Assembly: GCA_046563655.1 (NCBI GenBank)
Contig: CM102287.1
Coordinates: 6,014,001-6,078,000 of the forward strand
Direction of reading: 5' to 3'
DNA: 64,000 nt
Origin: Yuukianura sp. NJ FZ-2021
Lineage: Eukaryota
The notes below the pieces were generated by a model that did not search any database, was not told the DNA's origin, and worked only from the letters and a program-made list of their open reading frames with translations. Every line of letters begins with the position of its first letter. The first letter of the stretch is position 1. Of the stretch, positions 20,853 through 50,550 are shown one piece after another. A program made the position numbers and the translations under genes.

Positions 20853-22503
20853 ATGTCAGTGATGCAGGTTCGTACATTGACTAAATTGTCAACTTGTCAC
20901 CTTGTTTGAAATGTTGACAACTTTTTCCTTTTGGTTGTCCTGTGTCACTAGACTCAATCACGACATGCACACTGCATGTGCACACATAGTGTGCACGCAT
21001 GCACGCTGCATGATTCCTCATTTCTCCATCGGAAGAAAGCATTTTTTCATATTTTTTTCATATTTTTCATTTACATATGCATATCACAGAACTGTACATT
21101 GATTTTGGTTGACTTTGATTTGTAGACTATTGGCTTTTTAGGTTTTACGTTAGGCCAACTAAAGTTTTTCACACTCATTTGTTATGTTTTTACTTTATTT
21201 ATTTTTATTACTTTTTTGTGTTTTTGCGTTTTTAAACACAACTTTTGTTGCTTAGATTGCCAAGATGCCACCAATTCCGACTGAAACGATTGACCAAATC
21301 CCTTTGGGGTATGTTGAGAAACCGACCCAGCGACAAAGAAAAGATGTTTTGAAGATTCGACCTCTGAATGACCTCACAGACGTAGATCAAGATGGATTCA
21401 TTTCAACTCTAGAAGAATCCTATGTTCCACCGCCATTCACCATCAAAGAACTGCGTGACTGTATTCCAGCACATCTCTTCAAGAAGTCTCTTCTCAAATC
21501 GTCGTTGTATCTCATGGCCAATCTCTGCGCCGTGGCGGCCATTTTCTACGCAGCTACGTTCATCCACACTCTGGCTCCAGCTCCACTGGCCTTAGTCTTA
21601 TGGCCACTGTACTGGTGGTATCAAGGAGTAGCAGCTACTGGGATCTGGGTCATTGCTCATGAATGTGGTCACCAGTCATTCTCCGACTCCAAGGCCATTA
21701 ACAACTTCGTTGGACTCATTCTACACTCGATTCTGCTCGTGCCATACCATCCCTGGAGAATCTCACATGCTCAACACCATGCCTCAACTGGACATATTGC
21801 GCAAGACCAAGTTTTTGTACCCAAGAGACGCTCAGAAGTCAAGGTCAATCATGAACCGTCACCATGGCAAGAAGCTCTGGAAGCATCTCCACTCTACACC
21901 ATATACCATGTCTTCACTTACTTGTTTTTCGGATGGCCCGCCTACCTTATGATGCACGTCTCCGGACAAAAATACGACCAGTACACGTCCCATTTCCATC
22001 CAACGTCACCAATCTTTGAAAAACGCCATCGCAGCCAAGTTCTAATTTCTGACTTGGGTCTTGTCATTGTCTTGGCACTCATTGCCTCTTCGGTCTACCT
22101 GACATCCTTCTGGACCATGGCCAAGTTTTTTGGAATTCCGTACCTCCTGGTCAACTGCTGGCTCGTTACCATCACACTTCTCCAGCACACTGACGTCTAC
22201 TTGCCCCACTACGCTCCACATTCCTGGAACTTTGTTCGTGGAGCCTTGACCACGGTGGACCGAGACTACGGCTGGTTCCTCAACCACGCCCTGCACCACA
22301 TCCAAGATTCCCATGTCGCTCACCACCTCTTTTCCCAAATGCCGTTCTACAATGCCATCAAAGCCACGCCCTACTTGAAAGCCAAACTGGGCGAATACTA
22401 CTACTACGACCGAACGCCTGTCTGGAAAGCTCTGTATCGCGCAGTCCGGAACTGCGTCTTTGTTGAGGATTCGGGTGACATCCTCTTCTATCGCAACAAA
22501 TGA
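20853..22503 (+). CDS. Methyl-end (Delta12/omega-6, FAD2-like) fatty acid desaturase A; main exon 21256-22503, probable 15-nt first coding exon 20853-20867
   Basis: Three His boxes HECGH, HAQHH and HVAHH, plus FTIKELRDCIPAHLF, TGIWVIAH, WLVTITLLQHTD, WNFVRGALTTVDRDYG and MPFYNA. No cytochrome b5 domain. ATGTCAGTGATGCAG|gt splices in frame to ag|ATTGCCAAGATG. Confidence 0.93.
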
Positions 22504-23272: not shown

Positions 23273-25672
23273 ATGGATCCAATTTCATTATCCGCAGAAC
23301 TAGTTGTAAGAAATTACCTCAATTTTCACTTTTTCTAAAAAAAACACACGAAACATTGGCGCATTGCAACAATTCTTAAATTTACACTGGGGACGCCTAG
23401 GACGCTTTGAAAAAACTTAAGCACACGCTCGTTTCTCAAGTGGTTGGAAACTAAGAATGAAACGGAATTGTTTTTTCGTAATTTGAACACGCAAGTAGAT
23501 GATTAGACTTCATAAGCGTTCTTGCGTGCAACAGTTTTAACACTCCCTACAGGTCATCATTTCGAAATTCAATATTTTATTAACAAGCTCAAATTCAATA
23601 TTTACAAGAAAAAAATTCGTCACATTTTCAAATTAAATATTTAGGAACAATAATTTTTTTCTTTACAAATTGAATTTCAAATTACGAGAAATTCAGTATT
23701 TTATCAACACACCAAACCTAAAGTTTAAGTGCTTTCTCCGGGTTTCCGGATTTGCGAGCTGCGCTAAACTAAACTTAAGTTTGAAAAAACTAACTCTGCT
23801 CTAAAATTAATGGCTTTGGTGCTTTATTTGACTTTTTCTATCAGAAAATGGCCCCAATGCCACCAGTGCCAACGACGGAAGCAGCGCCTTCTGAAATGAG
23901 TCTCCGTCCCTTACGGAATTTGGAAAAAGAGCGGGAAGCCGAAGAGGCTTCCAAAAAACGCCGTGGACGCAAACCTCTGAACGACCTCTCTGACATCGCT
24001 AAGAAAACTTTCCGAGCGGAATACGAAGCCTCATACGAACCGCCTGCCTTCTCCATCAAAGAATTGAGAGACTGCGTCCCTGCGCATCTCTTCGTGCGCA
24101 GCCTCTGGACTTCTTTGGCCTACATGATCGCCAACTTGGCAACCGTCGTTGCCCTCTTTTACTGCGCCACTTTCATTCCGAAGGCGCCATTTTGGATTCG
24201 GTGTGTCCTCTGGCCGACTTACTGGTGGTTTCAAGGAGTTGCAGGCGTTGGCATTTGGATTCTGGCTCATGAGTGTGGGCATCAGGCTTTCAGCGACTCC
24301 AAGACAATCAACAATACCCTTGGCTTCTTTCTGCATACCCTCGTTCTCGTGCCGTACCATCCCTGGCGTATTTCGCATTCTCAGCATCATGCCTCGACTG
24401 CTAATACGATGTTGGACCAAGCCTACGTTCCGCGTACCAAATCCGAGTACGTCATAACCTAACTAATCCTAACCATGCACGGTATAACTTCAGTACTGGC
24501 TCAACAATGGCCAGACCGATCCAAAATAATCGGGGAATCTTGCCTTTTTTTTCGCGAATGTTTTTTCGTCAATACTTTTTTGGACAGGATTTGGCCTAGT
24601 CGGGCGTCACGCGTTTAAACAAACTGTTCATAATTTTGAAAAACTAAAAACTTTGTTATGGGAAATCCTATGTATTCTAAAATCCGGATTTAAAACCGGA
24701 TTTTTTAAACAAAATCCGTCACCGCTTTCTAGAAATGCGGATTTAAATCCGGATTTTTAATCAAAATTCGTCAAAATTCAAATTCCAAGTTTCTAGAAAG
24801 CCGTGACGGATTTTAACGGATTTTGATTAAAAAATCCAGATTTAAATCCAGGTTTCTAGAAAGCGGTGACGGATTTACACCCCTACTTATCATACACGTC
24901 GCTGTGCGAAAAATAGTCCGTACATGAGTGTCCGGAAACTAAATTAATCAGCTTCGATTCCTAATTCGCTACCTAACTTAACAAACCGATTTCCACTCTG
25001 CTTAGGTACCGTCCCCACGGAGATCCGTCCCCATGGATGGAAGCGATCGAAGAGTCACCGATCTTTACGCTCGTGACGATGCTGGGAATGCTGCTCTTTG
25101 GATGGCCCGCTTACTTCTTCCTTCACATGTCAGGCCGAACCTACGAAGGGCGATTTGCTACTCACTTCATGCCATCTTCCCCGATCTTTGAAGAGAAACA
25201 CAAGTGGCAAGTCCTGACCTCTGACCTCGGGATACTCGTTATGGTAGGCAGTTTGGTCTGGTGGGCCAACGTCACTTCATTCTGGGTCATGTCATCTTTC
25301 TATGGCATTCCGTATCTCATCGTCAATGCCTGGCTCATTACCATCACACTGCTACAACATACTGACGTGTACTTGCCGCACTATGCTCCCGATTCCTGGT
25401 CATTTGTGCGCGGGGCGTTGAGTACCGTGGATCGCGATTACGGCTGGTTCCTCAACCACGCCTTCCACCACATCCATGACTCCCATGTCGCTCACCACCT
25501 CTTTTCCCAAATGCCGTTCTACAATGCAATCAAAGCCACGCCCTACTTGAAGGAAAAACTAGGCGAGTACTACTTGTACGACCGAACGCCTGTTTGGAAA
25601 GCCTTGTACCGTGCTGTACGAAACTGCAAGTACGTAGACGATGCTGGCAGCGTTCTGTTCTACCGACGCTAA
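23273..25672 (+). CDS. Methyl-end (Delta12/omega-type) fatty acid desaturase B (exons 23273-23305, 23845-24446, 25006-25672)
   Basis: His boxes HECGH, HSQHH and HVAHH, co-linear with copy A. Phase-2 intron GA|gtacgt...cttag|G restores KSEYRPHGDPSPWME. Upstream exon MDPISLSAELV|gtaag is in frame. Confidence 0.92.
24678..24885. mobile_element. Palindromic MITE-like remnant inside the desaturase B intron
   Basis: AAATCCGTCACCGCTTTCTAGAAA...GGATTTAAATC (from about 24712) is inverted at about 24816-24876. Many AAATCCGGATTT units. Ends ACACCCCTA. Confidence 0.65.
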
Positions 25673-26480: not shown

Positions 26481-27082
26481 TTAAACGTGCTGAACCGAAC
26501 TGGCGTTGTTTGAAAACGGATTCGGGGGAGGCGTTGGAATGTGACTTCCGACTGGTTGAAATCCATTTTTGTCTAAAAATGAAATTTCGGAAATGAAAAA
26601 AACTTTGAACATTGAATTTGGAAGTATTTTTTCATTGGCAAAACATTTTTTATGGTTTACCGGCAACGTATGTTACGGAGATTAGTTCACCGTTGGGTGC
26701 TGTGTAGGAGTAGCTGCCTTTTACTACTTCGCCACCACCACTTTCCGCTTCGTCACTGGCAGCGCCACCTACTAGGTCCGATTTGGCCACACTTCCCGGT
26801 TCCGTTACTCCGGACTGTTCGGCCTTGAATCCATCACTAGTTTCAATCTCCCACTTGAAACTTCCATCCCCGTGGTTCTCAAATTCACTTTTCAGAATGG
26901 TCGCCACAGTCTTGTTTTGCTGCGACAGGGCTGCAGGAGGCTGTGCTGAGTTCGGACTCTGCGGACGACTTAAGCCAAGCGCCACCAATGCTAGAACTGC
27001 GACGGCCTGAAACAAATTCAAAATACTTCAATATTTTCAATTTTTTTTAAATTTAAAATCTCACCGTTTTAAGGAGAGTCAT
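26481..27082 (-). CDS. RR-1 cuticular protein (3 exons)
   Basis: Signal peptide, then ATILKSEFENHGDGSFKWEIETSDG...VVKGSYSYTAPNGELISVTYVA|DKNGFQPVGSHIPTPPP, the classic RR-1 signature. TATAAAA near 27148-27154 on the minus strand. Confidence 0.93.
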
Positions 27083-27408
27083 CTTGCCAAGTTCAGTCCG
27101 AGTTTAAACAATCAAGTGACAATATGTGAAAGACAATTTGTTTGGTCTTTTATACTTCCAATGTTCCCACAACTTGAGCATCAATTGTGACAACAATTAG
27201 CAATGTAAATTTCCATCCCTTCTACAAGTTAAGAAATTGCCAAATCCTAATTAGAACCAAGTCAAATTGTCAATATTACTCAAGTCCAAGTTATCAATAT
27301 TCATAAAGTTACAGTTGTTCAATATGAAAATACAGGGGTACATAAAATCGTTCTCGTCTAAACAAATTTTGAACAGCCTGAACAAGTTATTGTGGAATTT
27401 TGAATTTT

Positions 27409-30400
27409 TCACTTGTAGAATTTGTTTGAATTCATAGTCCAGGTAAGCATTTTCTGGAAGAGCTCAACATCCAAATCAGTGATGAATTGTACGTTACTTT
27501 TTACACTCGACTCAAAATCAAATGACACATGACCTCTCTGATTCCCATGGAGTTCCATTGACACAGGATGACAGCTCGTTGAGCGGATGACATTCGGTTC
27601 TATTAAGGCCGCCATGATGGTGGAGTCAAATGGTCTCCATGTCCCTAACTGGTGAACTCTGCCCCCCTCTTCAAAAGCACTTTTCTCAATTAAGTTCATG
27701 AATCTGCACTCCGGAGTATCTTCCTTCCCAAGCACATTCAGTCTCCAGTCCTGAAATATTAAACAAAAACATTAAAAAACAATGCTTCACAAATTAACTA
27801 AAAAACTGAAGAAAATTCGCCATTTGTGCATAGGATTCGTCCCAGTCCCATAATCACGCTGTTTCATACAAAGATCTGTATTAACTGATGCCAAAAATAC
27901 TGACGATGAAGGTAAAAATTGAAGAAAAGAATTGAGCCACGAAGGTCAAGAGGTCAAATTAAACTTTATTGACGATGTCTGGTTTTCATAAGGTCAAATA
28001 CGCTGGAACGACGCCGTTCAGTCCCTACAGTAGTGTCCCTCCGGACGTCAGTACTCATTGTCGACAGCCGTCGCATGTGTGCTAGTGACTCTCTCTTTAT
28101 CACTGACTTCCTCAATGTCGTCGATTCCCGCAGCACCCTTTCCTCCTCCACGTCGTAGTCCCACGGAACAGCAAACATTGCAGCCATGTCAGCTCTCTTC
28201 AAGAGCTGTCTGGAGTATCCCTTGTAATGGTAAACTATATGCTTCGCCTGTAATTTTAAAACAAACAATACAAAAATCTTTCAAAATTTTCAAATTTTCA
28301 AATCAATTGCAACGTACGCTGACGTCTTCGTAGTCAAAGTAATTAATTCCGAGATTCCTAGCCAGTCTCCTCGCAAGTAGTCTCATCACGTGCTCATTCC
28401 TACCGTATCGAGACAGTTTGATATCCTCCACAAGATACCTAAAACCAACAACAAGTTATTCAGATGATACTAAATCCAAGATCATTTTCCAAAGTGACTG
28501 TACCCGCCTACAATGATGAAATAGTGGAAGTCATTCAGAGAGTCCATGCTGCGAGCCAGCCTGATGTACACGTTGTATATTTCCTGTTCTGCAAGCACTT
28601 TCTTGTTGGCTTGAATACGCAAAACATAGCCACCCATCTAAAACCATTCCAAAAATCATTAACATTTGAAAAATTAAACTTTTAGAAAAAACACTATTCT
28701 AAAAAGTGAAAGTTTGACCTACCCGAGATATGATGAGTTCTCTTGTACAGAGGTGACCGTAGAGCAAGTACAGTGCAAATAAAATGGCCATGACGCACAT
28801 GAATGTCGGAAGAGGATAGTTTCCTACCATGACATGAAACAATATAGTGAGGAAGACGACTGCTGTAAGACAAATGAGTCCTTCGACAAAAATGTCCGGC
28901 CGGAAACGAATGTAATACAATCCATTTCCCAGATCTTCAAATGGATAATACTGATTAACAGAAAGATTCCAGTAAAAGTCTTCTTCGGGACTGAATTTCC
29001 AACGGGCTTTGACTGATTTCCACCAGGAGGTGCCACCCACAATCATGCTTTCGTTTTAGGCACAGTTTTCATTTTCAGAACTACATTTTGAACAAAATTA
29101 AGAAAAATTTCCGAAACTAAAGCAAAAAGTTGTTCCGTGTACAAATCGGGGAAGAGCCGGTAGCTACGGAGACGAATCGTCTCCGATTTTTAAAACGATT
29201 TTGCGTATCGTCTCAGACGATATGCAAAATCGTTTGAAAAAATCTGCCGAAAATTGCAGCGAATATCCAAATCTCGAAGCGTTTTTGGACGTGGGCGACG
29301 TGTTGTAGAGCACGAGCGAAATCTAACTTCTAAGATTACATATTGGGTACGTTTTGTCATGTGTGTCAAACCTAATATGTCTTTCTAACTTACCGGAGTC
29401 TGTACGGCAACTTCGGAACCAATTTCCTTCGGTGAAACAATAATTGGACAAGAAAAAGAAGTCAGCGTGACATGGACACTTTCAGGGTCAGAGAGGAAGT
29501 TAAATTCCGGACCATCAGTGCATAAATCTAAACACAAATTCAGGAAATTAGTAAACGTATTGAAATGCAACTTTCGTTCTAAAGAATACTGTCGTCCTAA
29601 AGTACTCAAATCTGCAACATACCATTACTACCGTTTCCTCCCATAATAAAAATTTCCTTGACTAGATTCTTAATCCGATCATCAGCTCGTACTGCAAGTC
29701 CCAAATTGGTCAACGGTCCCAAGGCCACAATTGTTAATCGTCCTAATGTGAACAAAATTTTCAAATCAAGTTAACAAAGTGTTCTATGCGGTTAGTTTTT
29801 TTTTTCATTAAGATGTAAATTCAACCTGCGAATTTCTTAGCCATTTGGATTATAACATCAACAGCGTTTTGCGGCTCTATTTTGGCTTCCGGTCTTTTCA
29901 AAATGGCTTCATCCACGTCTCCGAATCCATTACTACCATGATGAGTAGCCTTGGAGTGAAACGCAGACGGAGTAACCATTGGATGAGCAGCGCCACGAAA
30001 AACTGGAATCTAAATTATACCATTCCCTTCAGTTTGGGTTACAAAAATAGTTTGCATTGAGTATTTAATGAGTAAAGACTTACGTCAGTAATTCCCATTT
30101 TGTCCAGAATCATTGTTACGTTAACTGTCACATTGTCTATGGTCGTATTGCCATGAACACAAGTGATTCCAACAATCCGAAAAGGAATGTCCGGATGCTG
30201 ATGGGCCTTTAAAGCCATGATGATTGCCAACGTGTCATCCAGCCCGGCATCAGTATCAATCAAAACGATTCTCTCCTGAAAAGAAATAACACAGATTTAA
30301 CAGTTTTGGAATTTTGGAAATTGGTACTTCTAGAAGGGAGAAAAAGTAGACTGTTGAGAGTTGGAGCATTTGAGTGCTCAAAATTTGAAATTTGTCAAAT

Positions 30401-30513
30401 TTGGACACTGTCGGACCGACAATGTCAATCGACTGACGAGTTTTAATTCTGATTTGAAGGAAGACAAAGAGGTTATAAATGAAATAAGAATGATGATAAC
30501 TTACAGTATTCAT
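27409..30513 (-). CDS. Inosine/uridine-preferring nucleoside hydrolase 1 (6 exons; last intron 29393-27751 is 1.6 kb)
   Basis: DTDAGLDD Ca-binding motif, ITCVHGN, HGSNGFGD, LGPLTNL, MGG and EFNFLSDPE. Last exon DWRLNVLGK...PFD...VSMELHGNQRG. Confidence 0.9.
27966..29046 (-). CDS. TMEM249: TMEM249 / CatSper-theta-like two-TM protein (exons 29046-28723, 28637-28504, 28438-28318, 28247-27966), nested in the hydrolase intron
   Basis: Spliced ORF with PEEDFYWNLSVNQYYPF, two hydrophobic helices, NVYIRLACSMD, LARRLARNLGINYFDYEDVS|AKHIVYH. These match, in order, motifs I recall from vertebrate TMEM249 (LKNNSFYPF, VYVRLALSSD, IARKLNINYFDY, SYRHVVRH). All three introns are GT-AG and frame-compatible. 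Confidence 0.8.
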
Positions 30514-31225
30514 GTCAGTTTTCAAGTTACTAAAAAAAATCCCGTTCCAAGCTCCGTTCGAGCCGATATTCGAAAACAAACTAAAGCGTGCAGATTTTGT
30601 TCACCGGCGACGCCTTTTGCTTGTCTTTGCCACTTCTTTCGTTGTCTTAGTATGCTATCTGTGTTGTCATCGGACGCTGATTGACACTGACCTCTAAATG
30701 TTAATGAGGAGAGTATATTAATAGCTGTGGTTTAATATTTAGAGGTTTCAACTATTGGCTAACTTACCCACAGCTTGCTACAGTAGGGATCCGATTCCGA
30801 CGCCTGCGCTCTGTAGTAAGGTCAGATTCTTAATTTAAGAAGCTTATGGAATTAATCAACATGATTGACTGATCTTACTGTGTACTGTCCTGTTATGAAA
30901 TCTTGCTCTTACGCTCTGTGTTCCGATTCTGCTCTCCGTAGATTTCCGATGAGCGAATCTAACCCTAATATAACCCTCCCATGTCAACCCCAATGCACTT
31001 TCCAGAAGTTTTAAAAAATCGGGGTAAGCTGAGTAGGGATTTGCTTTAAAGCTAATAAAATAAATAGCTGATTTAAAATCATGAATAAAATTTGTATGTA
31101 AAATGGCTCCTCTCATTTGTAATTTTTACTGGTACAAGTGTGGGACATGGGTTAACCATAAAACATAAAATGCATTGTACATTTCCAAAAATAAACTTGA
31201 AAATTATTATTATTGGTGCAAGTAC

Positions 31226-32717
31226 TTACAGCATTTCATATTCTATACCACCTACGCCCCAAAGCATCACCTTCTCAAACAGTTCTTGATCTATTTCACT
31301 AACAATCGTGGTCTTCTTAGACTGATTAAGAACATCCTCGGTGTCAACAATCATGAGGCCCCTCGTATGACGTCCAGCAACCTCCACAGTACAGTGATAC
31401 TCCACAGAATTCTTGATGACCTGAGCCACACAAAAAGTGTCGGAATCATTAACTTTTTAAAACCTTTACAACATCAATCATGATTCTTGAATGTTTGAAC
31501 AAGTTACACGATGGTCAATCAGGGCAGCGGCAACTACTTGGTCACAAGGCGTCCATCCGTTGTACTTCCGCGTCCACTTTGAAGCTGACAACACTTTGTG
31601 CTCGATTTTATTCATCAACTCAGCAGCAGGGGTGTCCACTTTCGCTAAAACATCTCGTCGCCATTCCTAAACATCAAAGGAAGTTAAATTTGCTAATTAA
31701 AAACACAAATGGAAGAACGGAACTGGTTCAGAAAGTAGGAATACTGTTTACCAATGGCCTAGTAGCTTGACGAAGACAAACTTCCCATGGAACAATGTAC
31801 ACCGGACAAGCGTAACTGGAAAGCGTGATATACGCTGCTTCCGGATCAAAGAAGAAGTTAAATTCTCCACTCACTGTCACATTTCCGACCCCTAAAAGAC
31901 AAACAATATGCCTATTAGTCAAATCTAATCAAGATTCCTAATTCCTAAATAATTTCCAAAATTCAATTGAAATGCTTGATTTTACCTTCGATGTTCCCAC
32001 CCATTGCATAAATCTCACAAACGCAATCACTAATCGTAGGATCCAGTCGGATTGCCATTGCCAAGTTAGTATGAGGGCCGAGAGCCAGGATACTCAACTT
32101 TCCTAAAAACAATAGTCGAAATACTGTTACTTTGATCAGATAAAGTATAAGAAATTAAAAAAAAATACTCACTAACCTTTGTACTCATGCGCCAATCGGA
32201 TTATGGCTGACACTGCGTTCTCGGACTCCAACTTGGGTTCAACCACGTCATCAAAAACGTCCCCAAATCCATCGTGTCCATGATATGGCGTCTCTTCTAC
32301 ATTCTCGTAAGGAAACACTACTGGCACCTCGCACCCTCTGAAAATTGGAATCTTGAAGGACGTGGTTAAGAAATGCTTATCATCCCAATGAACTTACTGT
32401 TATATAATTTATTTGAATGCAACTGCTTACCTCTTTCAGTCCAGTAACATCCAGAAGTCTGGTAACATTCCTAGTAACATTGTCGACTTTTGTGTTGCCG
32501 CTAAGACATGTGATTCCAAGGACTCTAATCGCATGCTTTGGAGATTTGTGTGCTTGCAAGCACATTAGAATGGCCATGGCATCATCAGTCCCAGCGTCGG
32601 TGTCAATTAATACGAATTTCTCAGTGGCCTAAAAAGTTACAGAACAAAATTAATGAAAGCAAACATCACTTTTCTTTAATTAATCAATTAATTTTGAATA
32701 ATTAAGAGCGTTACCAT
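31226..32717 (-). CDS. Inosine/uridine-preferring nucleoside hydrolase 2 (7 exons; first coding exon is ATG only)
   Basis: DTDAGTDD, ITCLSGN, YHGHDGFGD, LGPHTNLA, MGGN, GNVTVSGEFNFFFDPEAAYI, PWE, WTPCD and VEVAGRHTRG. Confidence 0.92.
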
Positions 32718-36686: not shown

Positions 36687-38304
36687 ATGCGATCTGAGCT
36701 ATTGCATTCTGAGCGACCATCCAGTTTTGCAGGCATTTGGAAATATCCTGCTGGCCGGGAATTACTTTTCCAGAGTGCAGTCGATTGGATGAATGGTGAG
36801 GCAAGAGTTTATGGATTCGCAAAAAAATACTAACTTTTGGTAAAAAGTACTTTTAAGTACAAGAAATTAAGAAATACTTTATTTTTGAAAATAGGAAAGA
36901 GACAAGATGACAATTTGAACGGTCTGTGGAGAGTTCATGACAAAATTTACGATCTACAAACTTTTATTAAACACCATCCTGGAGGTTCTGATTGGTTGGA
37001 AATGACTCGTGGAACAGATATTACCGAGTCGTTTGAAGTTTCGCATATAGCCAATCCGGAATTAGTTGAAAAGACTCTCAAATCATACTTTGTTTGCAAT
37101 GCCACTTCACCCCGAATGTCACCGTATGCGTTCGATGACAACGGATTCTACAAAGTTCTCAAGGCAAAGGCTGGACCAGTGGTGAAGGTCTGATCTCCAT
37201 TTTGGCTGTCGCTTTTTATGTTGACGTTTGGCATTGATAAAAAGTTGCGTTAGATTTTTTAAAACAAATTAAGCAATTCTTTTTATAGGCTATTGGATCA
37301 GGACCGACTCCACAGATCCTATGGATGATGGATTCTTTAGTGATTCTGTTTCTTCTGATGACACTTTTGGCAACAACTGTCGATTCTTTCACGTTGCAAA
37401 TTTTGACTGGACTGGTATTGGCTCTCACGACAGTTGCAGCACACAATTTCTTACATCTAAAACAAAATTGGCGAACTTACTACTACGACTTGTCCTGGTT
37501 TTCTTCCTATGAGTTCCGAATCACCCATGCCCTTAGTCACCACTTATATCCAAACACAATCATGGTGAAATTACTCAAACTTTTTTCCAACAAGTTTTGA
37601 GGCGATGTTTAACCAATTTATCCTATTTTTTTTAGGATTTTGAAATTTCTGCGTTTGAGCCTTTTTTGGAATTCTTGCCGAAACGAAACAAGAATTGGAT
37701 TCAGCGTTACGGCCCTGTTTTCTACAGCCACGTTATTAACGCTTTGGTTTTATTTGTCGCTTTTTGCACACGTTGGTTTCGGATATCCAAAGGTCACCAA
37801 GCCTTTTACCCCGAAAACCTTCTCCCAATTCTCCATCTTCTATTATGTTTCGCCTTCAGTCCATCTTTGACCTCAGCAGTATCTGCTTGGCTCACAATCC
37901 ACTTCTCAGCTTCCTACTTCTACCATCTAATTGGATTCAATGCTGCCCATCACCATCCGAGCATATTTCATGATGGAGATGAGGCCAGGGCAGATCCAGA
38001 TTTTGGCCTTTGTCAACTCGACGCTGTTCGAGAGCGTTCGGATCCACTGATTCAGAACTCTCTATTTGTTCAATTGATTGGATTTGGAGAGCATTCGCTT
38101 CATCACCTCTTCCCTACAGTATGCATTTCCAAACTGATGTACTTGAAGCCTATTTTGGAAGATACGCTGAAAGAATTCGAAGAAGAATTTCCAGCGATGT
38201 CGCAGAAGGAGCTGTTTGTTGGAACGCTAGCGCAACTCAGACGGATTCAGCGACATGGCCTTGAAGAACAAAAAAAAATTAGCAACCACAATTACGACGA
38301 GTAA
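36687..38304 (+). CDS. Cyt-b5-r: Cytochrome b5-related protein (cyt b5 domain fused to a desaturase-like domain), 4 exons
   Basis: LWRVHDKIYDL..FIKHHPGG..WLEMTRGTDITESFE, AHNFLH, THALSHHLYPNT, NAAHHHP, FGEHSLHHLFPT. Confidence 0.9.
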
Positions 38305-43521: not shown

Positions 43522-45216
43522 TCAGTAGGACAGCAAGCTAAACGCAATTCCCCGCGCCAAATTGTCCAGTAGAGTTAACTTGGCTTTCTAGAAGCAAAAA
43601 AAGACACAACTCGACAACTTGAGTTTTTCTTAATTAATTACCGACCAAGGTATTTATGAGTCTCATTGCCGGGAATTTCCTTTTCCCGATGCCTTATACA
43701 ATCCTCCAACGGTACATTTTAAAACTGGTAGTGAAATCAGCGTTTTAATGCGTAAATTCCATAGGGGCAAAATAGGCGGTTGAAGTTGTCGATTCAGGTT
43801 GTTCATGTTCTGACGAAATTTGGACGAAATGTTGTAGACTCTGGACATGAGCATTGCGCCAGGAGCAATCAAAATTCCGAAAGTTACGGTATAGAACTAC
43901 TCGCCAATAAAACAGTCATTCCCGGATGCAGAGCATGACGCAAACGTATGATGACCGAAAGCGGCTATGAATGTAGCCAATATTATACCGAGTTTTAAGG
44001 TTGGTAAAAATAGAGATCCGTATGCAATGTTCTGGAGTTGGTTCAATAGTTGCATTGAACGGTAAACTCGGATACAAGTCGTTCCCTTGTCTTGAACATT
44101 TGTGCACTCCAAACTGATCAAAAAAAAATTTAACGCAGAGATTGTGTCGATTATTACCGAAAGACGTGGTTCGAAAAAAAATCATTAAAAAGACAAATTA
44201 AAAGAAAATCTAAATATATAGTTTTTTCCTTTTAACTACAGTAGAAGTAGAACCTATTGCAAAATGCGTTCTGATTGGTCGATATAAAAAAAAGTTGTAT
44301 GTGTTACCGTTCTCCTCTGCTATCTGATTTGAAAGTAGAAATTATTTAACTTTAATAGTATCCCGCAGTTACGAGAGGCGCAGCTTACGCTAGATGGGTT
44401 CTACTGTCATAATTCTACTTGTCATAATCATAATTTTTATTGTGGTCAGCGATTGCTTACCAAGCTTTGCTCAGCCATAGAATAATTGTAAGTAATGATG
44501 GTACGAACACTCCAGTAAGAATTTCGGCATCGCTCAACAGTTGAATTGTGCAAACTGTCTGACCTACTGCAATACACACGCATATACAAAACGTCGTAAA
44601 CATTGGAGCAGTGATCACAATTCCAAGAATTCCAGAAGAAATTATAGATCCTGCAACCAAATAGGACATACAAGCATACATTTTTCCACGAAACGATGCA
44701 TTATGCACAGCTTTGGTCAATTCGGTTCCAGCATCTTCCATTTGAACTTTTCCTACCAAAAACAGAATCCTATCATGCAATGAAAACATTCAAACCTTTC
44801 AAAAAATACAACCAACCACAAGATTTGTAAGGAAATCTAAAGAAAAAAATTGTTACAATACCAAGAGCACTTTCAGTCCCAACGCTGAAAATATTGTTGA
44901 CAAGATGCGTTAGTTCATTCTGGTAGAACATCATGGTTAACCGAAGTGGCACTGCGGCGACAGCAGCAGTAAATAGTAAAACAGTTATGACTTTAACTGT
45001 AGCAGAGGTTGTAGTTAAACTTCGGAGAAGCAGTAGCGCTGCATTCAAAATTTGAAAAGTTAGCAAAATTTTTCGAATTTGTGATCGTACTTTTCCCGGG
45101 GGTGAAAATGGTTTGACATGAAAAGAGTTTTGAACCAATTCAATTTCCGACATTTTTAAATATGCGAAATTATTTAATAATTTTTGTAAGAATTTCAGTT
45201 CATATTGAGTTAACAT
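43522..45216 (-). pseudogene. Disrupted gustatory/odorant-receptor-like gene, paralog of 46469-47875
   Basis: Co-linear with its neighbour (MLTQYELK, CIRVYRSMQL, PGAMLMS, PVLKCTVGGLY, KAKLTLLDNLARGIAFSLL). It has a frameshift near 43950, a TAG at 43899-43897 and no exon-3 donor before a TGA at 43665-43663. Confidence 0.75.
44239..44407. mobile_element. Short Tc1/mariner-type MITE remnant in a receptor pseudogene intron
   Basis: TA-CAGTAGA(AGTAGA)ACCTAT at the left and ATGGGTTCTACTG at the right are inverted termini of CAGT type. This intron is much longer than the equivalent one in the paralog. Confidence 0.55.
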
Positions 45217-46468
45217 TCTTATTACACTTTTTTTTTGCTGATCAAATCCCGGAGAAAATGTTTCTTTAACTGTTATGGATTTGAACAATTCGTCTGAAGT
45301 GCAAGGAAATGCCAACAGGGAGCATGTATCTGCATTTGCTACTGTATTTGAATTTTTTCACACCTCAAAACCCTTCACTACCGCCCTGTCATTAGTCTAA
45401 TTAGGTACTCATGGGCCAATTTTCACCTTTTTCTCGCAGCTTTTCCAGTAGAAGCTTGTTGAGGGCCCCAATTTTAGTCAAACTTTGAAATTGTAATGTG
45501 TGCTTTCATTAAAAATGTTGTGAAGGACATTATTTAAGCTTGAGCAAGGACTACGACAAAAGTTTTCTCCAGGAAATTAAAGATGAAAGGAAGAAGCATC
45601 AATTAAAGTTGAAGGTTGTCCAACCAGCAAATGGGGTTACGATTCAACTTCAAAATTCATGCTCGGCAAATAACTGTATACTGTCCGCATTGCCAAATTG
45701 TTAGCTGGGCTACATGGTGAAATGGCCAAAATATTTGGCCAAAAGTGAAAAGGCCGCCACAATGCAAAAGACGATTGGATATGGATAGGTTAGATGAGGT
45801 TTTTTCCTTTTTACTTTTTTTCCCTAACCTTTTCACTTTTAGTCATTTCACTTTCTAAGCAAATTACATAAATACACACTAAACTTTATTTTAAAAAAAA
45901 AGTAAGTACAAAGTTCCGAGTTGCTGAGGCAGTTATAATTTACTCATTCATATATTTACTCACGATTAAACACAAAAGTGCCAACTTCATTTCTAATTTG
46001 CTTTTAATTACTAATATGAGATTTAAGCGCAGCAGACGTCATTTGAAAAGGCTGTTAACTCTAATTCCTTTCTCCAATTACGGTGCACTATTCAGTGCGG
46101 AGAATAAAATTACAGGAGACGCCTAGGTCACAATTACCATCCATTTTGTCTTATTGACGTTTCTGTCGCACCTTCTTCGGACCATGAAGCGTTTTAACCC
46201 GAAATTAACATTTTAGTGCTGTCCCGCCTATCGCAGTCCTTTTTTTTTAGAAGTTAAAGCAATTATTACACGTGCCAAAATTACCGAGTAGAGTCAATGT
46301 GGCTTTCTGAAACGCCAAAAAAATTATTGAGGGTAACTTCACGAAAGAAAGTCGACGTCGACTTCGCGCTCAAAATTTTGTCTAAAGGCATTACCGATTT
46401 TAAGAAAAAGCTGTTAATAATATCATAAGATAAAACAAAAATTTTATGAATCCTTTTTCGACTAGTTT

Positions 46469-47875
46469 TTAGATGGAAAGCAAACTGAAGGCAATTCCAC
46501 GTGCCATGTTGTCCAACAGTGTCAATTTGGCTTCCTGAAAACACAAAGTAAAAAATACCAATTTTTTTGAATTCTTGAATTAAAAAATTCATTCTTAAAA
46601 TTACTTTTACAAGCTTTTAGGCGTATGTTAATCATCGACTAACCCCTTCCATATGATACAATCCTCCAATTGTACATTTTAAGACCGGCATTGATCTTAG
46701 CGTTTTGGCGTAGTATCGTTGTGGAACTGGAACAGCATTTTCCAGTTGATTAACACCGTTGTTCATGTTCTGATGGAATTTGGATGAAATGTTGTAGACT
46801 TTGGACATGAGCATTGCACCAGGACCAATCACAAGCGTCATGTTGATTATATAAAAGACAAGTGCGACGGTGATACCTGGATGAAGAACATGATTCAGAC
46901 GTACGAGACAGAATACGACCATGCATGTAGTTACAATCACTCCCAGTTTTACGGTAGGCAGAAATATTGATCCGTAGACAACGTTGTGGAGTTGGTTCAT
47001 CAGTTGCATTGACCGGTAAATACGGATACAACTCGGTTGCTTACCGTCAACATTAGCCCACTCTAAACTGAATAACAAAAATAAAATTTTAAAACGTGTA
47101 AACCAGTGTAACTTACGATTAGAAACTTTTTTTTTCAAAATTAGTGCGAACCAGGCTTTACGGAGCCAAAGTATAAGAGAGACTATGGATGGAACGAAAA
47201 TTGCCAAAAGCAGCGTAGTATCGCTCGCCAATTGAAACCAGCAAATGGCCTGGACAATAACCATGACGATGGAGATCCACCATGATGAAAACATGGACCA
47301 ACTAACAAGAATTCCAATAAGTCCAACGGAAAAGATGCTTACAGGAACGCAGCACATCATCGCAGCATACAATTTAGCACGGAGCAATTTCTCCTGCGTG
47401 GCTTCCAGTTCCACTTTGGTTTCAGAACTTTCTCTTTCATGCTGATCTAAAAGTTTCAAGAAAAGTAAAAACTTGTTAAATTTATGAACTACAAATTAAA
47501 CAGGCTAAGGGGTTGAACATAAATCTTACCAAGGATTTGACCGATGCTGAAGACGTTATTGCTGAGCTGAGCCAGTTCGTTCTTGTATAGCAGCATAGTC
47601 AAGCGGAATGCGATTGACGCAGTGCCTTCGATTGCTACGATCATCGCTATGATTTTAATCGTAACAGACGTTGTGGTAAGAATTCGTGTCAGCAAAAGAA
47701 GCACATTTAGCACGTGACCAATCAAAAACGGTTTTGCAAATATTGCTCGTATTCCTTTCACCTCAACTACTCTAACTTGGAAAGAATTTTCAATCAATTC
47801 AATTTCTACCACTTTAAGGTTCGTCAAAATTGCAAGAACAGTTTGACACAATTTCAATTCATATTGCGTCAGCAT
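46469..47875 (-). CDS. Multi-TM chemoreceptor-like (GR/OR superfamily-like) protein, 4 exons, apparently intact
   Basis: About 390 aa with multiple hydrophobic helices, YRSMQLMNQLHN, and PVLKCTIGGLYHMEG|EAKLTLLDNMARGIAFSLLSI* with a phase-0 intron before the last helix. This layout is typical of arthropod GR-type receptors. The family call is by architecture only. Confidence 0.65.
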
Positions 47876-48546
47876 TTTGAATTTGATTTTTTAAGTGTGG
47901 ATTTGGGGAACTATTTCCAATTCGAAATGAGATTGAGATTCAAACGAAAGCTGTCGTTTTATCTTCCTTATTATAGCCTTAAAATTGTACGGTTTTTGTT
48001 TACTAAACGTTTAAGTAAGTTTATTATAAAGGGCAAACCCTCTGTAATTGCCCCAGAAAAGTGCCAAAATTTCTAATTCGTTGCTAATTGCGGTATAAGT
48101 TAAGGTGAGAAGTAAAAGTTAAAAGAGAAGTAATTTGTATAATGTTGAACAAATATAAGTAACTACTTAAGTAATTACGCTGTGTAACAAAGTCGCTCAT
48201 TTTCCATAATTTCATAAACCGTTGCTTGTGAAGCTGAAAATATTTTTCTGAAAATTAACGTTCCTCAGCTTAAAACGTGGAAAATTTTAAGGTAGAGAAA
48301 AAAGTTGGACCAAGATCAAAAGCAATTTTGTTAAAGATGAGTCTTTATTTTTTTAATGTCTTACCTAACTTAGTAATTAATTTGCAATTACATTTTAACA
48401 AGTAGGAACTAAAATGTGAATAGTTAAATAGCTTTGCGCTTCCAACTTCTTCGGTGCGAAAGGATAAATTAAGTAGTAAATGAGTAAGGAAAAAAGTTGT
48501 GCTTCTATACACTTTTTCACTAGAATCCAAATTACTTTGGAAAACT

Positions 48547-50550
48547 TTAGTCTACTTCTTCTACGGTGGGGCCAGATCCAGAATGTCCATCAGGTCCAGG
48601 TCGCTGACCTCCAGCACGTTGACCTCCGTGCAACTTCGTCATGAACGGAGCGCAATATTTCTGAATTTCATTCAGTTTGTCCTCGTACTCTTCTTTCTCA
48701 GCCAAAAGGTTGCTGTCCAGCCATTTCAGAACTTCAGAGCATTTCGATCCAACTTCCTTTTTCTCCGATTCAGACAATTTGTCCGCCGAAGCTTCTTCCG
48801 CTGCTTGTTTGACTCCGAACAAATACGACTCCAATTTGTTCCGAGCAGCGACTTTTTCTCGTTGCTTTTCATCTTCTGCTTGATACTTCTCAGCATCCGC
48901 AACCATCTTCTCAATTTGTTCCTTGCTGAGTCTTCCCTTGTCGTTCCGAATCGTAATTTTTTCGGATTTGCCAGTACTCGAATCCTTGGCGGAGACATTC
49001 AAAATTCCATTGGCGTCAATGTCGAAAGAGACTTCAATTTGCGGAACTCCGCGTGGAGCTGGTGGAATTCCAGTGAGATTGAATGTGCCAAGTAAATTGT
49101 TGTCCTTGGTCATAGCTCGTTCACCTTCAAATACTTGGATGGTCACGGCCGGTTGGTTGTCAGCGTAAGTAGTGAATGTCTTGGATTGTTTGGCGGGAAT
49201 TTTGCAGTTTCGCTCGACGATCTTCGTCATGACGCCACCGGCAGTTTCGATTCCAAGTGAAAGTGGAGCGACGTCAACGAGCAGAACTTGTTGAAGTGAA
49301 GCAGAGTTGTCACCGCTCAAAATGGCTCCTTGTACTGCTGCACCGTAAGCAACGGCTTCATCAGGATTGATGGACTTGTTCAGTTCTTTGCCATTGAAGA
49401 AGTCTTGAAGCAGTTTTTGAACTTTGGGAATCCGAGTTGACCCGCCAACAAGAACAACGTCATGGATTTGGCCTTTGTCCATTTTGGCATCTTTGAGAGC
49501 CTTCTCTACTGGTTCCATTGTGGATCGAAACAGGTCGATGCAAAGTTCTTCAAATCTTGCGCGGGAAATTTTAGAGTAAAAGTCAACTCCGTCGTGAAGA
49601 GCGTCAATTTCAATGCTTGCTTCTGTGTTGGATGACAGAGTGCGTTTGGCCCGTTCACAGGCAGTGCGCAGACGTCGAATAGCTCGGGGGTTTGAGCTGA
49701 TGTCTTTCTTGTATTTTCGTTTGAATTCTTCCACGAAGTGGTTGACCAATCGGTTGTCAAAGTCTTCCCCACCAAGATGTGTGTCTCCTGCAGTAGACCG
49801 TACAGAAAAGAGTGATCCGTCGTCAATGGTCAGAATAGAGACGTCAAAAGTTCCACCTCCGAGGTCAAAGATCAGAACATTTCGTTCTCCTTGGAGATTT
49901 TTGTCCAGTCCATAAGCAAGGGCAGCCGCAGTAGGCTCGTTAATGATTCTGAGGACGTTGAGTCCAGCGATGGCTCCAGCGTCTTTTGTGGCTTGACGCT
50001 GTGAGTCATTGAAGTATGCTGGAACGGTGATGACAGCGTCCTTGACCTGTCGACCCAGAAAAGCCTCTGCCGTTTCTTTCATTTTGACGAGGACCATGGA
50101 ACTGATTTCTTCTGGTGAAAACGTCTTCGTTTCTCCTTTGAATTCCACTTCAAAAACTGGTTTGGATGAATCGTTTCGCACTTTGAATGGCCAGTGCTTC
50201 ATGTCGCCTTGAATCTTCGGATCGTCATATTTTCGTCCAATCAATCTGCAATTCGAAAAGAAAACATTAAGGAATCTGTTTTTCGTTTTCTTTAAAATCT
50301 TATTTTTGAATTTTTATTTAAATAAAACTTACCTTTTAGCATCGAAAATTGTGTTTCTCGGATTCATAGCGACTTGGTTCTTGGCAGCGTCACCGATGAG
50401 TCGCTCAGTGTCTGTGAAAGCGACATAACTGGGTGTGGTTCTATTGCCCTGGTCATTGGCGATGATTTCCACTTTTCCGTGTTGCCAGACACCGACGCAC
50501 GAATATGTCGTGCCCAAGTCAATTCCAATAGCAGGAGCTTTGCCAGCCAT
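48547..50550 (-). CDS. Hsp70: Cytosolic Hsp70, probably inducible; one 87-nt intron (50332-50246)
   Basis: [34 protein letters not shown] and C-terminal GPTVEEVD. No GGMP repeats. Confidence 0.97.

What the first reader, a model, noticed from the sequence alone, without database searches (positions are those of the whole stretch)
27751..29393. TMEM249 (CatSper-theta)-like gene in an arthropod, nested on the same strand in a nucleoside hydrolase intron
Seen: a complete four-exon gene of about 285 codons lies between hydrolase exon 5 (donor 29393) and exon 6 (acceptor 27751), on the same strand. The paralogous hydrolase has only an intron of about 85 nt at this site. The host spliceosome must therefore skip three internal introns and their exons. 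Known: TMEM249 is an auxiliary subunit of the mammalian sperm Ca2+ channel CatSper, which is absent from Drosophila and C. elegans and patchy in arthropods; most nested genes are antisense. Inference: this lineage either retains a CatSper complex or uses theta independently. The extra C-terminal tail (RRLST, RRSS) offers PKA-type sites. Testis-specific use of an internal promoter could allow the nesting.
Basis: partly seen in the sequence, partly recalled or inferred. Interest (0 to 1): 0.8.

Follow-up and report, generated by a model that had tools for sequence, protein, structure and literature searches.

The report
CatSper-theta-like gene nested in hydrolase intron
An arthropod genome carries a complete homologue of the sperm calcium-channel helper protein TMEM249 inside an intron of a nucleoside hydrolase gene on the same strand; the gene is real, but both this family in arthropods and this kind of nesting have been seen before.

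Summary
On the minus strand a four-exon, 286-codon gene (29046-27966, all introns GT-AG) lies wholly inside the 1643-nt intron 5 (29393-27751) of a six-exon inosine-uridine nucleoside hydrolase gene on the same strand. The tandem paralogue has an 85-nt intron at the same site and phase.

The gene belongs to the TMEM249/CATSPER-theta family. Pfam PF15158 matches exons 1 and 3 in order. The spliced protein aligns end to end with a 317-aa relative from a transcript-sized contig. A profile of the clade finds mouse TMEM249 of the solved CatSper complex (E 6e-20). A folded relative matches that chain best.

Relatives are already deposited for the springtails Orchesella cincta and O. dallaii. An adjacent cuticle-protein gene supports an arthropod origin.

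Not testable here: expression, splicing of the host across the nested gene, and the presence of CATSPER1-4. No RNA run was listed and no genome is held. In mammals same-strand nesting is about as common as antisense nesting (PMC11694760). Verdict: a real but fairly ordinary new member of a known family. Its main value is as a pointer to a possible CatSper channel in an arthropod lineage.

The parts
28723..29046 (-). TMEM249-like exon 1 (108 codons: start codon, N-terminal cytosolic stretch, two hydrophobic helices)
   Evidence: ATG at 29046-29044 is the first ATG after an in-frame stop, and donor GT follows at 28722. PF15158 profile 1-89, 23.6 bits. Kyte-Doolittle peaks are centred on residues 57-70 and 81-92. 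Relative P0001 is 61% identical, and its similarity ends at the donor.
28504..28637 (-). TMEM249-like exon 2 (134 nt, phase 0 in, phase 2 out)
   Evidence: Acceptor ttttag and donor gtacag. It aligns without gaps to P0007, P0008 and P0009. It has no Pfam match of its own.
28318..28438 (-). TMEM249-like exon 3 (the most conserved part, ending in the LGINYFDY motif)
   Evidence: PF15158 profile 136-175, 38.2 bits, E 1.7e-09, above the 25-bit cut-off on its own. phmmer against PDB returns 2 sequences at E<=10, and both are mouse TMEM249 (7eeb_J, 9ubw_J, E 0.011).
27966..28247 (-). TMEM249-like exon 4 (93 codons plus stop: end of the conserved domain, then a basic tail with RRLS and RRSS)
   Evidence: Open frame with acceptor ttacag. 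No Pfam match. It aligns to the basic tails of P0007/P0008, including a shared ...SVF... near the end. The equivalent tail of P0008 folds with pLDDT below 50.
27965..27970 (-). AATAAA overlapping the stop codon; candidate poly(A) signal of the nested gene
   Evidence: Read directly from the sequence. Its use is inferred, not shown.
29047..29393 (-). 347 nt between the host exon 5 donor and the nested ATG; presumed promoter and 5' UTR of the nested gene
   Evidence: Inference from position. It holds a 27-nt-arm palindrome at 29187-29241 (93% complementary, 1 nt between the arms) that is unique in the window. The region varies by indels among DNA contigs (joints 29094>29216 and 29175>29281).
27751..29393 (-). 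Host hydrolase intron 5 (1643 nt), which contains the whole nested gene
   Evidence: Donor ccg|gtaagt and acceptor atttcag|GAC, phase 0 on both sides. The host's other introns are 229, 74, 83 and 95 nt, by arithmetic on the exon coordinates.
29394..30513 (-). Host IU-nucleoside hydrolase A, exons 1-5 (30513-30505, 30275-30084, 30009-29826, 29742-29623, 29527-29394)
   Evidence: GT-AG model of 326 aa without a stop. PF01156 matches are collinear for exons 2-5. The 9-nt exon 1 (start codon) is the least certain part.
27409..27750 (-). Host hydrolase A, exon 6 (113 codons plus stop)
   Evidence: PF01156 profile 229-296 of 297, E 1.6e-04. 24% identity to paralogue B's C-terminal exons. No PDB match by phmmer.
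31226..32625 (-). Tandem paralogue hydrolase B; its homologous intron is 31751-31667 (85 nt)
   Evidence: tblastn of A against the window gives 40-56% identity over the first four blocks. Intron borders were read.

Best explanation
Shown: an intact, independently evolving orthologue of TMEM249 (CATSPER-theta) sits in an arthropod genome. It has four exons and 286 aa, with an N-terminal cytosolic stretch, two transmembrane helices, a cytosolic beta-rich globular domain ending in the LGINYFDY motif, and a lineage-specific basic tail. It lies entirely inside the one long intron of a tandemly duplicated IU-nucleoside hydrolase gene, on the same strand.

Inferred, function: as in mouse, the protein is a scaffold that helps assemble a CatSper-type sperm Ca2+ channel, stabilising the CATSPER4-like pore subunit. 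TMEM249 is gained and lost together with the CatSper genes across eukaryotes, so its presence predicts that this lineage still has CATSPER1-4.

Inferred, gene organisation: the nested gene has its own promoter in the 347 nt upstream of its ATG and ends at the AATAAA that overlaps its stop codon. Introns in this stretch of the genome are short. Its three 65-85-nt introns are therefore probably recognised and removed as units, which leaves the host's exon 5 donor to pair with the exon 6 acceptor. Host transcripts must read through the internal poly(A) signal, so the two genes are probably expressed in different cells or at different times. [quoted passage not shown]
For: Family:
- PF15158 matches exon 1 (23.6 bits, profile 1-89) and exon 3 (38.2 bits, profile 136-175) in order.
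- The whole-library HMMER search with exon 1 gave 7 proteins at E<=0.001. Four are relatives (P0001, P0004, P0006, P0007). Three are long repeat proteins that carry other Pfam families and no PF15158.
- P0007 scores 76.2 bits on PF15158 over profile 10-183 of 184.
- The spliced protein aligns to P0008 over residues 1-286 (36% identity), to P0009 of Orchesella cincta (32%) and to P0010 (29%), with no gaps at exon junctions.
- The profile of alignment A1 finds mouse TMEM249 chains 7eeb_J and 9ubw_J at E 6e-20. The next match is at E 0.2.
- The AlphaFold model of P0008 has Foldseek best matches 9ubw_J (E 1.7e-06, TM 0.60 by target length) and 7eeb_J.
- The Atlas's two best clusters are both 100% PF15158.

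Intactness:
- The start codon is shared with P0001 and P0008.
- 4 of 4 listed coding variants in DNA contigs are synonymous. These come from the 40 differences shown out of 359.

Nesting:
- Host exons on both sides are collinear with PF01156.
- The paralogue's intron is at the same site and phase and is 85 nt.
- Contigs of two studies tile the junctions.

Function (literature, passages read): PMC10523455 reports that Tmem249 clusters with Catsper1-4, b-d/e and Efcab9 in a co-evolution screen of 1,256 eukaryotic genomes. It also reports that CATSPER-theta has two TM domains plus a cytosolic globular domain, scaffolds CATSPER4, self-interacts at the dimer interface, and is required for male fertility.
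Against: - There is no evidence of expression for either gene.
- CATSPER1-4 and the other subunits could not be looked for, because no genome is held.
- Arthropods are usually listed among lineages that lost CatSper (PMC5553355, one passage). In the text of PMC6660944 that I read (section 11 and passages), no arthropod is named among the groups that keep CatSper with sNHE and sAC. That paper's Fig. 4 and supplements were not visible to me.
- The full spliced protein was never scored against Pfam as one chain. Exon 1 alone is just under the 25-bit cut-off, and exons 2 and 4 have no match of their own.
- The profile and the fold speak for the clade, not the window's protein alone. The model is only moderate (mean pLDDT 57.4).
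- The host's exon 6 is divergent: 24% identity to the paralogue and no PDB match. The host's listed variants are 5 synonymous to 5 non-synonymous codons, so the host may be under weaker constraint.
- In a distant relative (L001) no hydrolase exon is seen in the 1160 nt upstream of the gene, so the nesting is probably not ancient.
Confidence: 0.7

Rival explanations
1. The hydrolase copy A is no longer a working host. Arrival of the TMEM249-like gene, or a rearrangement, split a duplicate hydrolase. Exons 1-5 and exon 6 are now decaying remnants that are not spliced together, so the 'nesting' is only geometric.
For: - A second, compact paralogue (B) lies 700 nt upstream and could cover the function.
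- Exon 6 of A is only 24% identical to B's C-terminus, scores 21.9 bits on PF01156 and has no PDB match by phmmer.
- The listed variants in A are 5 synonymous to 5 non-synonymous codons, against 4 to 0 in the nested gene.
- Intron 5 is 7 to 22 times longer than A's other introns (coordinates).
Against: - All six exons are open, all ten splice sites are canonical, and the phases fit, giving 326 aa of normal length for the family.
- The five Pfam matches are in order and without overlap.
- The N-terminal DTDxGxDD stretch is intact.
- Half of the listed changes are synonymous, which is more than neutral decay would give. The numbers are small.
- A and B are only 40-56% identical, so the duplication is old and A has stayed open since.
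Confidence: 0.2
2. The theta-like protein works without a CatSper pore. The lineage has lost CATSPER1-4 but kept this two-TM plus PH-like scaffold as an assembly chaperone for some other membrane complex, much as EROS/CYBC1 serves NADPH oxidase 2.
For: - Arthropods are listed among lineages that lost the whole CatSper set (PMC5553355). A butterfly is reported to keep only two pore subunits (PMC6660944), so partial retention does occur.
- The third-best structural match of the model is EROS in the NOX2 complex (8kei_D, E 2.2e-03). The Atlas also lists a Cybc1_Eros cluster (score 0.90). The fold is therefore used by another assembly chaperone.
- The arthropod proteins carry a long basic tail that extends beyond the end of the two solved mouse chains, where the profile match to 7eeb_J ends at chain residue 148 of 171.
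Against: - Tmem249 co-evolves tightly with the CatSper genes. CatSper genes make up eight of its ten most significantly co-evolving genes in 1,256 genomes (PMC10523455).
- The most conserved stretch between the window and mouse lies in the cytosolic domain, which that paper says mediates binding to CATSPER4.
Confidence: 0.15
3. The two genes form one transcription unit. Hydrolase exons 1-5 are alternatively spliced to the TMEM249-like exons, or the TMEM249-like mRNA starts at the host promoter, giving chimeric or bicistronic RNAs rather than two independent genes.
For: - They share a strand, and only 347 nt separate the host donor from the nested ATG.
- Host exon 5 ends in phase 0, the nested exon 2 begins in phase 0, and the nested exon 1 ends in phase 0. 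The joints exon 5>nested exon 2 and nested exon 1>host exon 6 would both be in frame.
- No TATA-like element is seen upstream of the nested ATG (my reading).
Against: - Relatives P0007 and P0008 come from contigs of 1.3-1.45 kb that hold the coding sequence without introns. P0008 starts at the homologous Met with no hydrolase part, so in a relative the gene is made as a stand-alone message.
- A chimera that lacks the two TM helices, or lacks the hydrolase C-terminus, is unlikely to fold.
- L001 shows no hydrolase exon upstream of the gene.
Confidence: 0.08

Closest known systems
Mouse/human CATSPER-theta (TMEM249), chain J of the CatSper structures 7EEB and 9UBW
   Same: - Same Pfam family, PF15158.
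- Same layout: cytosolic N-terminus, two TM helices, a cytosolic globular domain and the ...LAR.L.INYFDY stretch.
- The profile match is E 6e-20, and the structural best match is 9ubw_J.
   Different: - Only about 20% identity at the structural level.
- The arthropod protein has an extra basic tail of about 80 residues with RRxS sites. That tail has no Pfam match and lies beyond the stretch of the clade profile that matches the mouse chain.
- It starts at an ordinary ATG, whereas the mouse gene starts at CTG (PMC10523455).
- A partnership with CATSPER4 is untested here.
Orchesella cincta 'Transmembrane protein' ODM92397.1 and O. dallaii CAL8142152.1 (springtails), with unnamed relatives P0007/P0008, P0010 and P0001
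   Same: - Same arthropod-type TMEM249 clade.
- Full-length alignment, with a basic C-terminal tail in P0007/P0008 and a long tail in P0009.
   Different: - Only 32-36% identical to the window's protein. The closest relative is the fragment P0001, at 59-61% over exon 1.
- In the metagenome locus L001, which is nearest to Orchesella, the stretch equivalent to exon 1 is split by an extra intron, and no hydrolase lies in the 1160 nt upstream.
Host/nested gene pairs (intronic nested genes) as catalogued in mouse and human
   Same: A whole protein-coding gene lies inside one long intron of a host. The catalogue reports that nested genes tend to be tissue-specific and that co-expression is often testis-specific (PMC11694760, passages).
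   Different: - Here the host intron is only 1.6 kb, in a stretch of the genome with 65-230-nt introns.
- The nested gene itself has three introns, so it is not a retrocopy.
- Expression has not been examined.
EROS / CYBC1 (chaperone of NADPH oxidase 2, PDB 8KEI chain D)
   Same: Third-best structural match of the clade model (E 2.2e-03). It is also a small membrane-anchored assembly factor.
   Different: It belongs to another Pfam family, PF15169. No sequence-level match was seen, so this is a resemblance of fold only.

Membership tests
TMEM249 / CATSPER-theta (Pfam PF15158) | Significant match to the family profile along its length | tested here: met
   Exon 3 alone scores 38.2 bits (cut-off 25). 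Exon 1 scores 23.6 bits at collinear positions 1-89 and 136-175 of 184. Relative P0007, which aligns full-length with the window's protein, scores 76.2 bits over profile 10-183. The joined protein was not scored as one chain.
TMEM249 / CATSPER-theta (Pfam PF15158) | Homology to the subunit seen in the solved CatSper complex | tested here: met
   The clade profile A1 matches 7eeb_J and 9ubw_J at E 6e-20. The window's exon 3 alone finds only those two chains (E 0.011). Foldseek's best matches are 9ubw_J and 7eeb_J.
TMEM249 / CATSPER-theta (Pfam PF15158) | Two transmembrane helices followed by a cytosolic globular domain | tested here: met
   Two hydrophobic peaks are centred on residues 57-70 and 81-92. 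The model of P0008 has helices 53-73 and 78-97, then a beta-rich domain to about residue 200. PMC10523455 describes this architecture.
TMEM249 / CATSPER-theta (Pfam PF15158) | Co-occurrence with CATSPER1-4 and the other auxiliary subunits in the same genome | not testable with these tools
   No genome is held for this window. Nothing is recorded for this genome in earlier notes.
TMEM249 / CATSPER-theta (Pfam PF15158) | Expression in male germ cells and location in the sperm flagellum | not testable with these tools
   The 5 runs listed are all DNA.
TMEM249 / CATSPER-theta (Pfam PF15158) | Binding to CATSPER4 and self-interaction | not tested
   No partner sequence from this organism is available.
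Same-strand intronic nested gene | The whole nested gene, from start to stop, lies inside one intron of a host on the same strand | tested here: met
   The nested CDS 29046-27966 lies within intron 29393-27751. The flanking exons match PF01156 at profile 160-191 and 229-296.
Same-strand intronic nested gene | Host mRNA is spliced across the nested gene, and the nested gene has its own transcript | not testable with these tools
   No RNA data. Indirect only: relatives P0007/P0008 come from contigs that hold the CDS without introns and without a hydrolase part.
Inosine-uridine preferring nucleoside hydrolase (PF01156), the host | Collinear profile match over the whole domain and an intact reading frame | tested here: met
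   Exons 2-6 match profile 1-52, 56-109, 115-149, 160-191 and 229-296. The model is 326 aa with no stop. The N-terminal aspartate cluster is seen in the translation; that this cluster is a defining motif is recalled, not tested.

The most novel reading that the evidence does not exclude
The lineage has lost the CatSper pore subunits but kept the theta-like protein, which then acts as an EROS-like two-TM plus PH-fold chaperone for a different membrane complex, with its basic RRxS tail as a kinase-controlled switch. The less radical alternative is also open: this is one of the few arthropod lineages with a complete CatSper channel.
Probability: 0.13. Interest if true: 0.6.

Novelty: new member of a known kind. 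Interest (0 to 1): 0.3.

Why it matters
CatSper is usually described as lost in arthropods, and flies use other channels for sperm motility. TMEM249 is gained and lost together with the CatSper genes, so an intact copy apparently under purifying selection flags this arthropod lineage, along with springtails, as a place to look for a surviving CatSper channel. That would give an invertebrate system for a channel that cannot yet be expressed heterologously.

The same-strand nesting in a short-intron genome is a compact natural case for asking how a host intron is removed when it contains three functional introns and a poly(A) signal. Neither point is a surprise on its own: springtail relatives are already deposited, and same-strand nesting is common.

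Tried and rejected
- No RNA holder was listed for window 27400-30400. Junction reads and male/female expression could therefore not be examined. Reads were laid on DNA contigs.
- No whole genome is held, so CATSPER1-4, B/G/D/E, SLC9C1 and soluble adenylyl cyclase could not be sought.
- The word-indexed search with exon 1 among longer proteins found nothing (63 candidates, none at E<=0.001).
- phmmer of exon 1 against PDB found nothing, and neither did phmmer of host exon 6.
- Three of the 7 hits of the whole-library search (P0002, P0003, P0005) were set aside as chance matches. They are long repeat proteins of 1052-2937 aa that carry ricin-lectin, SdrD or fibronectin domains and no PF15158.
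- Earlier notes of this scan held nothing for this genome, for the words CatSper or TMEM249, or for the exon 1 sequence.
Its Fig. 4 on arthropods is not held, so which arthropods keep CatSper remains unseen.
- No paper in the held library contains both 'CatSper' and 'Collembola'. None of the 15 listed papers contained 'CatSper'.
- Rfam search of 27000-31000 at E<=0.1 gave no match, so the intron holds no known RNA gene.
- The palindrome at 29187-29241 is not a repeated element in the window (2 matches, which are its own two arms).
- Conservation of the nesting: alignment A1 was too variable for a locus search. With P0006, 3 of 218 candidate stretches passed. Only L001 holds a real relative, and it has no hydrolase exon in its 1160 nt upstream. 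L002 and L003 are 15-residue matches and were ignored.
- The organism could not be placed more closely than arthropod. The nearest desaturase relatives carry no organism names.
Full report
**What is there.** Reading the minus strand of 27400-29800 and the stop-to-stop frames gives a clean four-exon model:
- Exon 1: 29046-28723.
- Exon 2: 28637-28504.
- Exon 3: 28438-28318.
- Exon 4: 28247-27966.

A script that joined these by coordinates returned 861 nt, 286 codons plus one terminal stop, and GT..AG at all three introns, which are 85, 65 and 70 nt long. The ATG at 29046-29044 follows an in-frame stop. An AATAAA at 27970-27965 overlaps the stop codon.

**The host.** The same strand carries a six-exon inosine-uridine nucleoside hydrolase: 30513-30505, 30275-30084, 30009-29826, 29742-29623, 29527-29394 and 27750-27409. 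It has 326 codons and all introns are GT-AG. Its exons 2-6 match PF01156 in order, at profile positions 1-52, 56-109, 115-149, 160-191 and 229-296 of 297.

The interval in the finding, 27751-29393, is exactly intron 5 (1643 nt, phase 0). It contains the whole four-exon gene, with 347 nt to spare upstream and 215 nt downstream. A tandem paralogue lies at about 32625-31226 and is 40-56% identical over its first four blocks. It has an intron at the same codon position and phase, 31751-31667, which is 85 nt.

**Is the arrangement an assembly artefact?** Only DNA runs hold the stretch. Laid on 27000-31000, contigs of four runs from two studies cover all 30 bins, or 29 of 30 in X3. Three results bear on the junctions:
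- Single contigs bridge 29028-29411, which spans the nested 5' end and the host exon 5 donor.
- Single contigs bridge 27608-27876, which spans host exon 6 and the nested 3' flank.
- Contigs of the second organism label tile 27561-29138.

The stretch around 29100-29380 differs by indels between contigs. It contains a 27-nt-arm palindrome at 29187-29241 that occurs nowhere else in the window.

**What the nested gene is.** Pfam gives PF15158 (TMEM249) for exon 1 (23.6 bits, profile 1-89) and exon 3 (38.2 bits, profile 136-175), in the right order. Exons 2 and 4 have no match of their own.

A search of 1.84 billion representatives with exon 1 gave 7 proteins at E<=0.001. Three are long repeat proteins with other Pfam families and no PF15158, so they are chance matches. 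Four are relatives:
- P0001 is 131 aa and 61% identical. Its similarity stops at the exon 1 donor.
- P0004 and P0006 are fragments of exon 1.
- P0007 is 292 aa and scores 76.2 bits on PF15158 over profile 10-183.

P0007 and its cluster mate P0008 (317 aa) come from contigs of 1289 and 1451 nt that hold the coding sequence uninterrupted, so they look like transcripts.

A second search with P0007 added P0009, the 'Transmembrane protein' of the springtail Orchesella cincta, and P0010. An O. dallaii protein shares P0009's cluster.

The spliced window protein aligns to P0008 over residues 1-286 (36% identity), to P0009 (32%) and to P0010 (29%). No exon junction shows a gap, and the start Met is shared.

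Links to the mouse subunit:
- A profile of these sequences finds the two mouse TMEM249 sequences of the solved CatSper complexes at E 6e-20. The next match is at E 0.2.
- The window's exon 3 alone finds only those two chains (E 0.011).
- The AlphaFold model of P0008 is moderate: mean pLDDT 57.4, most 10-residue blocks between residues 20 and 200 at 60-80, and the tail below 50. It shows two long helices, then a beta-rich domain.
- The model's best structural matches are 9ubw_J (E 1.7e-06) and 7eeb_J, followed by EROS (8kei_D).
- The Atlas's two top clusters are both TMEM249.
- Hydropathy of the window protein shows two hydrophobic segments, centred on residues 57-70 and 81-92.

Membership of the family is therefore met on sequence, fold and architecture. 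The caveat is that the joined protein was never scored as a single chain.

**Organism.** About 380 nt beyond the hydrolase's stop lies an ORF with Chitin_bind_4 (46 bits), and the only named relatives of the nested gene are springtail proteins. That supports 'arthropod'. The 32% identity to Orchesella shows that the organism is not close to that genus. I could not place it further.

**How it probably works.** From passages of PMC10523455:
- Tmem249 clusters with Catsper1-4, b-d/e and Efcab9 in a co-evolution screen of 1,256 eukaryotic genomes.
- It scaffolds CATSPER4 mainly through its cytosolic part and self-interacts at the CatSper dimer interface.
- It is needed for channel assembly and male fertility.

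The best-conserved stretch between the window and mouse lies in that cytosolic domain. My preferred reading is that this protein does the same job and that the lineage keeps a CatSper channel. That is an inference from co-evolution, not a result.

The roughly 80-residue basic tail carries RRLS and RRSS. It has counterparts in P0007/P0008, including a shared ...SVF... near the end. It lies beyond the stretch of the clade profile that matches the solved mouse chains. PKA-type phosphorylation is possible but untested.

**Nesting mechanics (inferred).** Introns in this stretch of the genome are short: 65-95 nt, with one of 229 nt. The three internal introns are therefore likely to be recognised as units, which leaves the host's exon 5 donor for the exon 6 acceptor.

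Three boundaries are all phase 0: the end of host exon 5, the nested exon 1/2 boundary and the start of host exon 6. Mis-joined products would therefore stay in frame. The internal AATAAA would also cut host transcripts short. Separate times or places of expression are the simplest way for both genes to work.

The mouse/human catalogue (PMC11694760, passages) reports three things:
- Same and opposite orientations are 'broadly similar' in frequency.
- Nested genes tend to be tissue-specific.
- Co-expression of pairs is common in testis.

The geometry here is therefore not exceptional.

**Evidence on constraint.** Of the 359 differences between contigs and the window, 40 were shown.
- Four fall in the nested coding sequence, and all four are synonymous.
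- Eleven fall in the host coding sequence, affecting ten codons: five synonymous and five not.
- Two adjacent changes, at 27559 and 27560, have the same depths in three runs and make up the whole depth in X1. They therefore lie together and give Ser>Trp, not the stop that a one-at-a-time reading suggests.

The numbers are small, but they fit a constrained nested gene and a less constrained host.

**Age of the nesting.** A metagenome locus, L001 (1575 nt), holds a relative nearest to Orchesella at 64% identity. Its stretch equivalent to exon 1 is split by an extra intron. Its 1160 nt upstream show no hydrolase match by tblastn at E<=0.01 or by Pfam at E<=0.1. This weak evidence suggests that the nesting is specific to the window's lineage.

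**What is known, and novelty.**
- PMC5553355 (one passage) lists arthropods among lineages that lost all CatSper genes.
- PMC6660944 (section 11 and passages) calls the arthropod pattern heterogeneous. It names arthropods with sNHE and sAC but no CatSper, and arthropods with sAC only. It places the fruit fly among those with none of the three. It also reports a butterfly with two pore subunits.
- In the text I could read, no arthropod is named as keeping the whole set. That paper's Fig. 4 and supplements were not available.
- No held paper mentions both CatSper and Collembola.

The gene family is known, arthropod members are already deposited (though unremarked), and same-strand nesting is common. 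This is a new member of a known kind. Its value is as a lead: look for CatSper in this lineage.

**Open points.** Expression, host splicing and the CatSper gene set could not be examined, because no RNA run was listed and no genome is held.

Noticed in passing
window 21265-22500 (+); second copy 23794-24462 plus 24977-25672 (+): There are two tandem delta-12 (FAD2-type) fatty acid desaturase genes, the first without introns (412 aa). The closest named relatives are fungi: Massospora cicadina 62%, Neoconidiobolus thromboides 59%, Entomophthora muscae 55%, then Mortierellomycotina, Kickxellomycotina and chytrids. Unnamed sequences from short contigs reach 66-83%. This may be a fungus-derived gene in an arthropod genome. 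No tree was built.
   Followed up: partly
window 29187-29241: A near-perfect palindrome (27-nt arms, 1 nt between them) lies 140-195 nt upstream of the nested ATG, next to a second small palindrome around 29160-29175. It is unique in the window. It sits in the stretch where DNA contigs differ by indels of 45-128 nt. It could be a regulatory site or an unstable hairpin.
   Followed up: partly
model of P0008 (relative of the gene at window 27966-29046): After the two mouse TMEM249 chains, the best structural match is EROS/CYBC1 in the NADPH oxidase 2 complex (8kei_D, E 2.2e-03). The Atlas also lists a Cybc1_Eros cluster at 0.90. Two assembly chaperones of unrelated channels or oxidases may share a two-TM plus PH-like fold.
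   Followed up: no
L001 1161-1322 and 1420-1539: In this metagenome relative, the region equivalent to the window's single exon 1 is split by an intron of about 97 nt between the N-terminal stretch and the TM helices. Intron positions therefore differ within the arthropod clade.
   Followed up: partly
window 29394, 28723/28637, 27750: Host exon 5 ends in phase 0, the nested exon 1/2 boundary is phase 0, and host exon 6 starts in phase 0. Host-nested chimeric splices would therefore be in frame.
   Followed up: no
window 26650-27027 (-): A cuticle protein ORF with Chitin_bind_4 (46.2 bits) lies about 380 nt downstream of the hydrolase stop on the same strand. It is useful as a marker of arthropod origin.
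   Followed up: partly
window 44773-45357, 46632-47495, 47489-47890 (-): Three neighbouring ORFs have similar hydrophobic, multi-helix-looking sequences. The two that were scanned have no Pfam match. They may be a tandem family of lineage-specific membrane or receptor genes.
   Followed up: no
window 48547-50313 (-): A 588-codon open frame reads like an HSP70/HSC70-type chaperone (my reading of the translation, not scanned). A further ORF with a FA_desaturase domain lies at 37636-38304.
   Followed up: no
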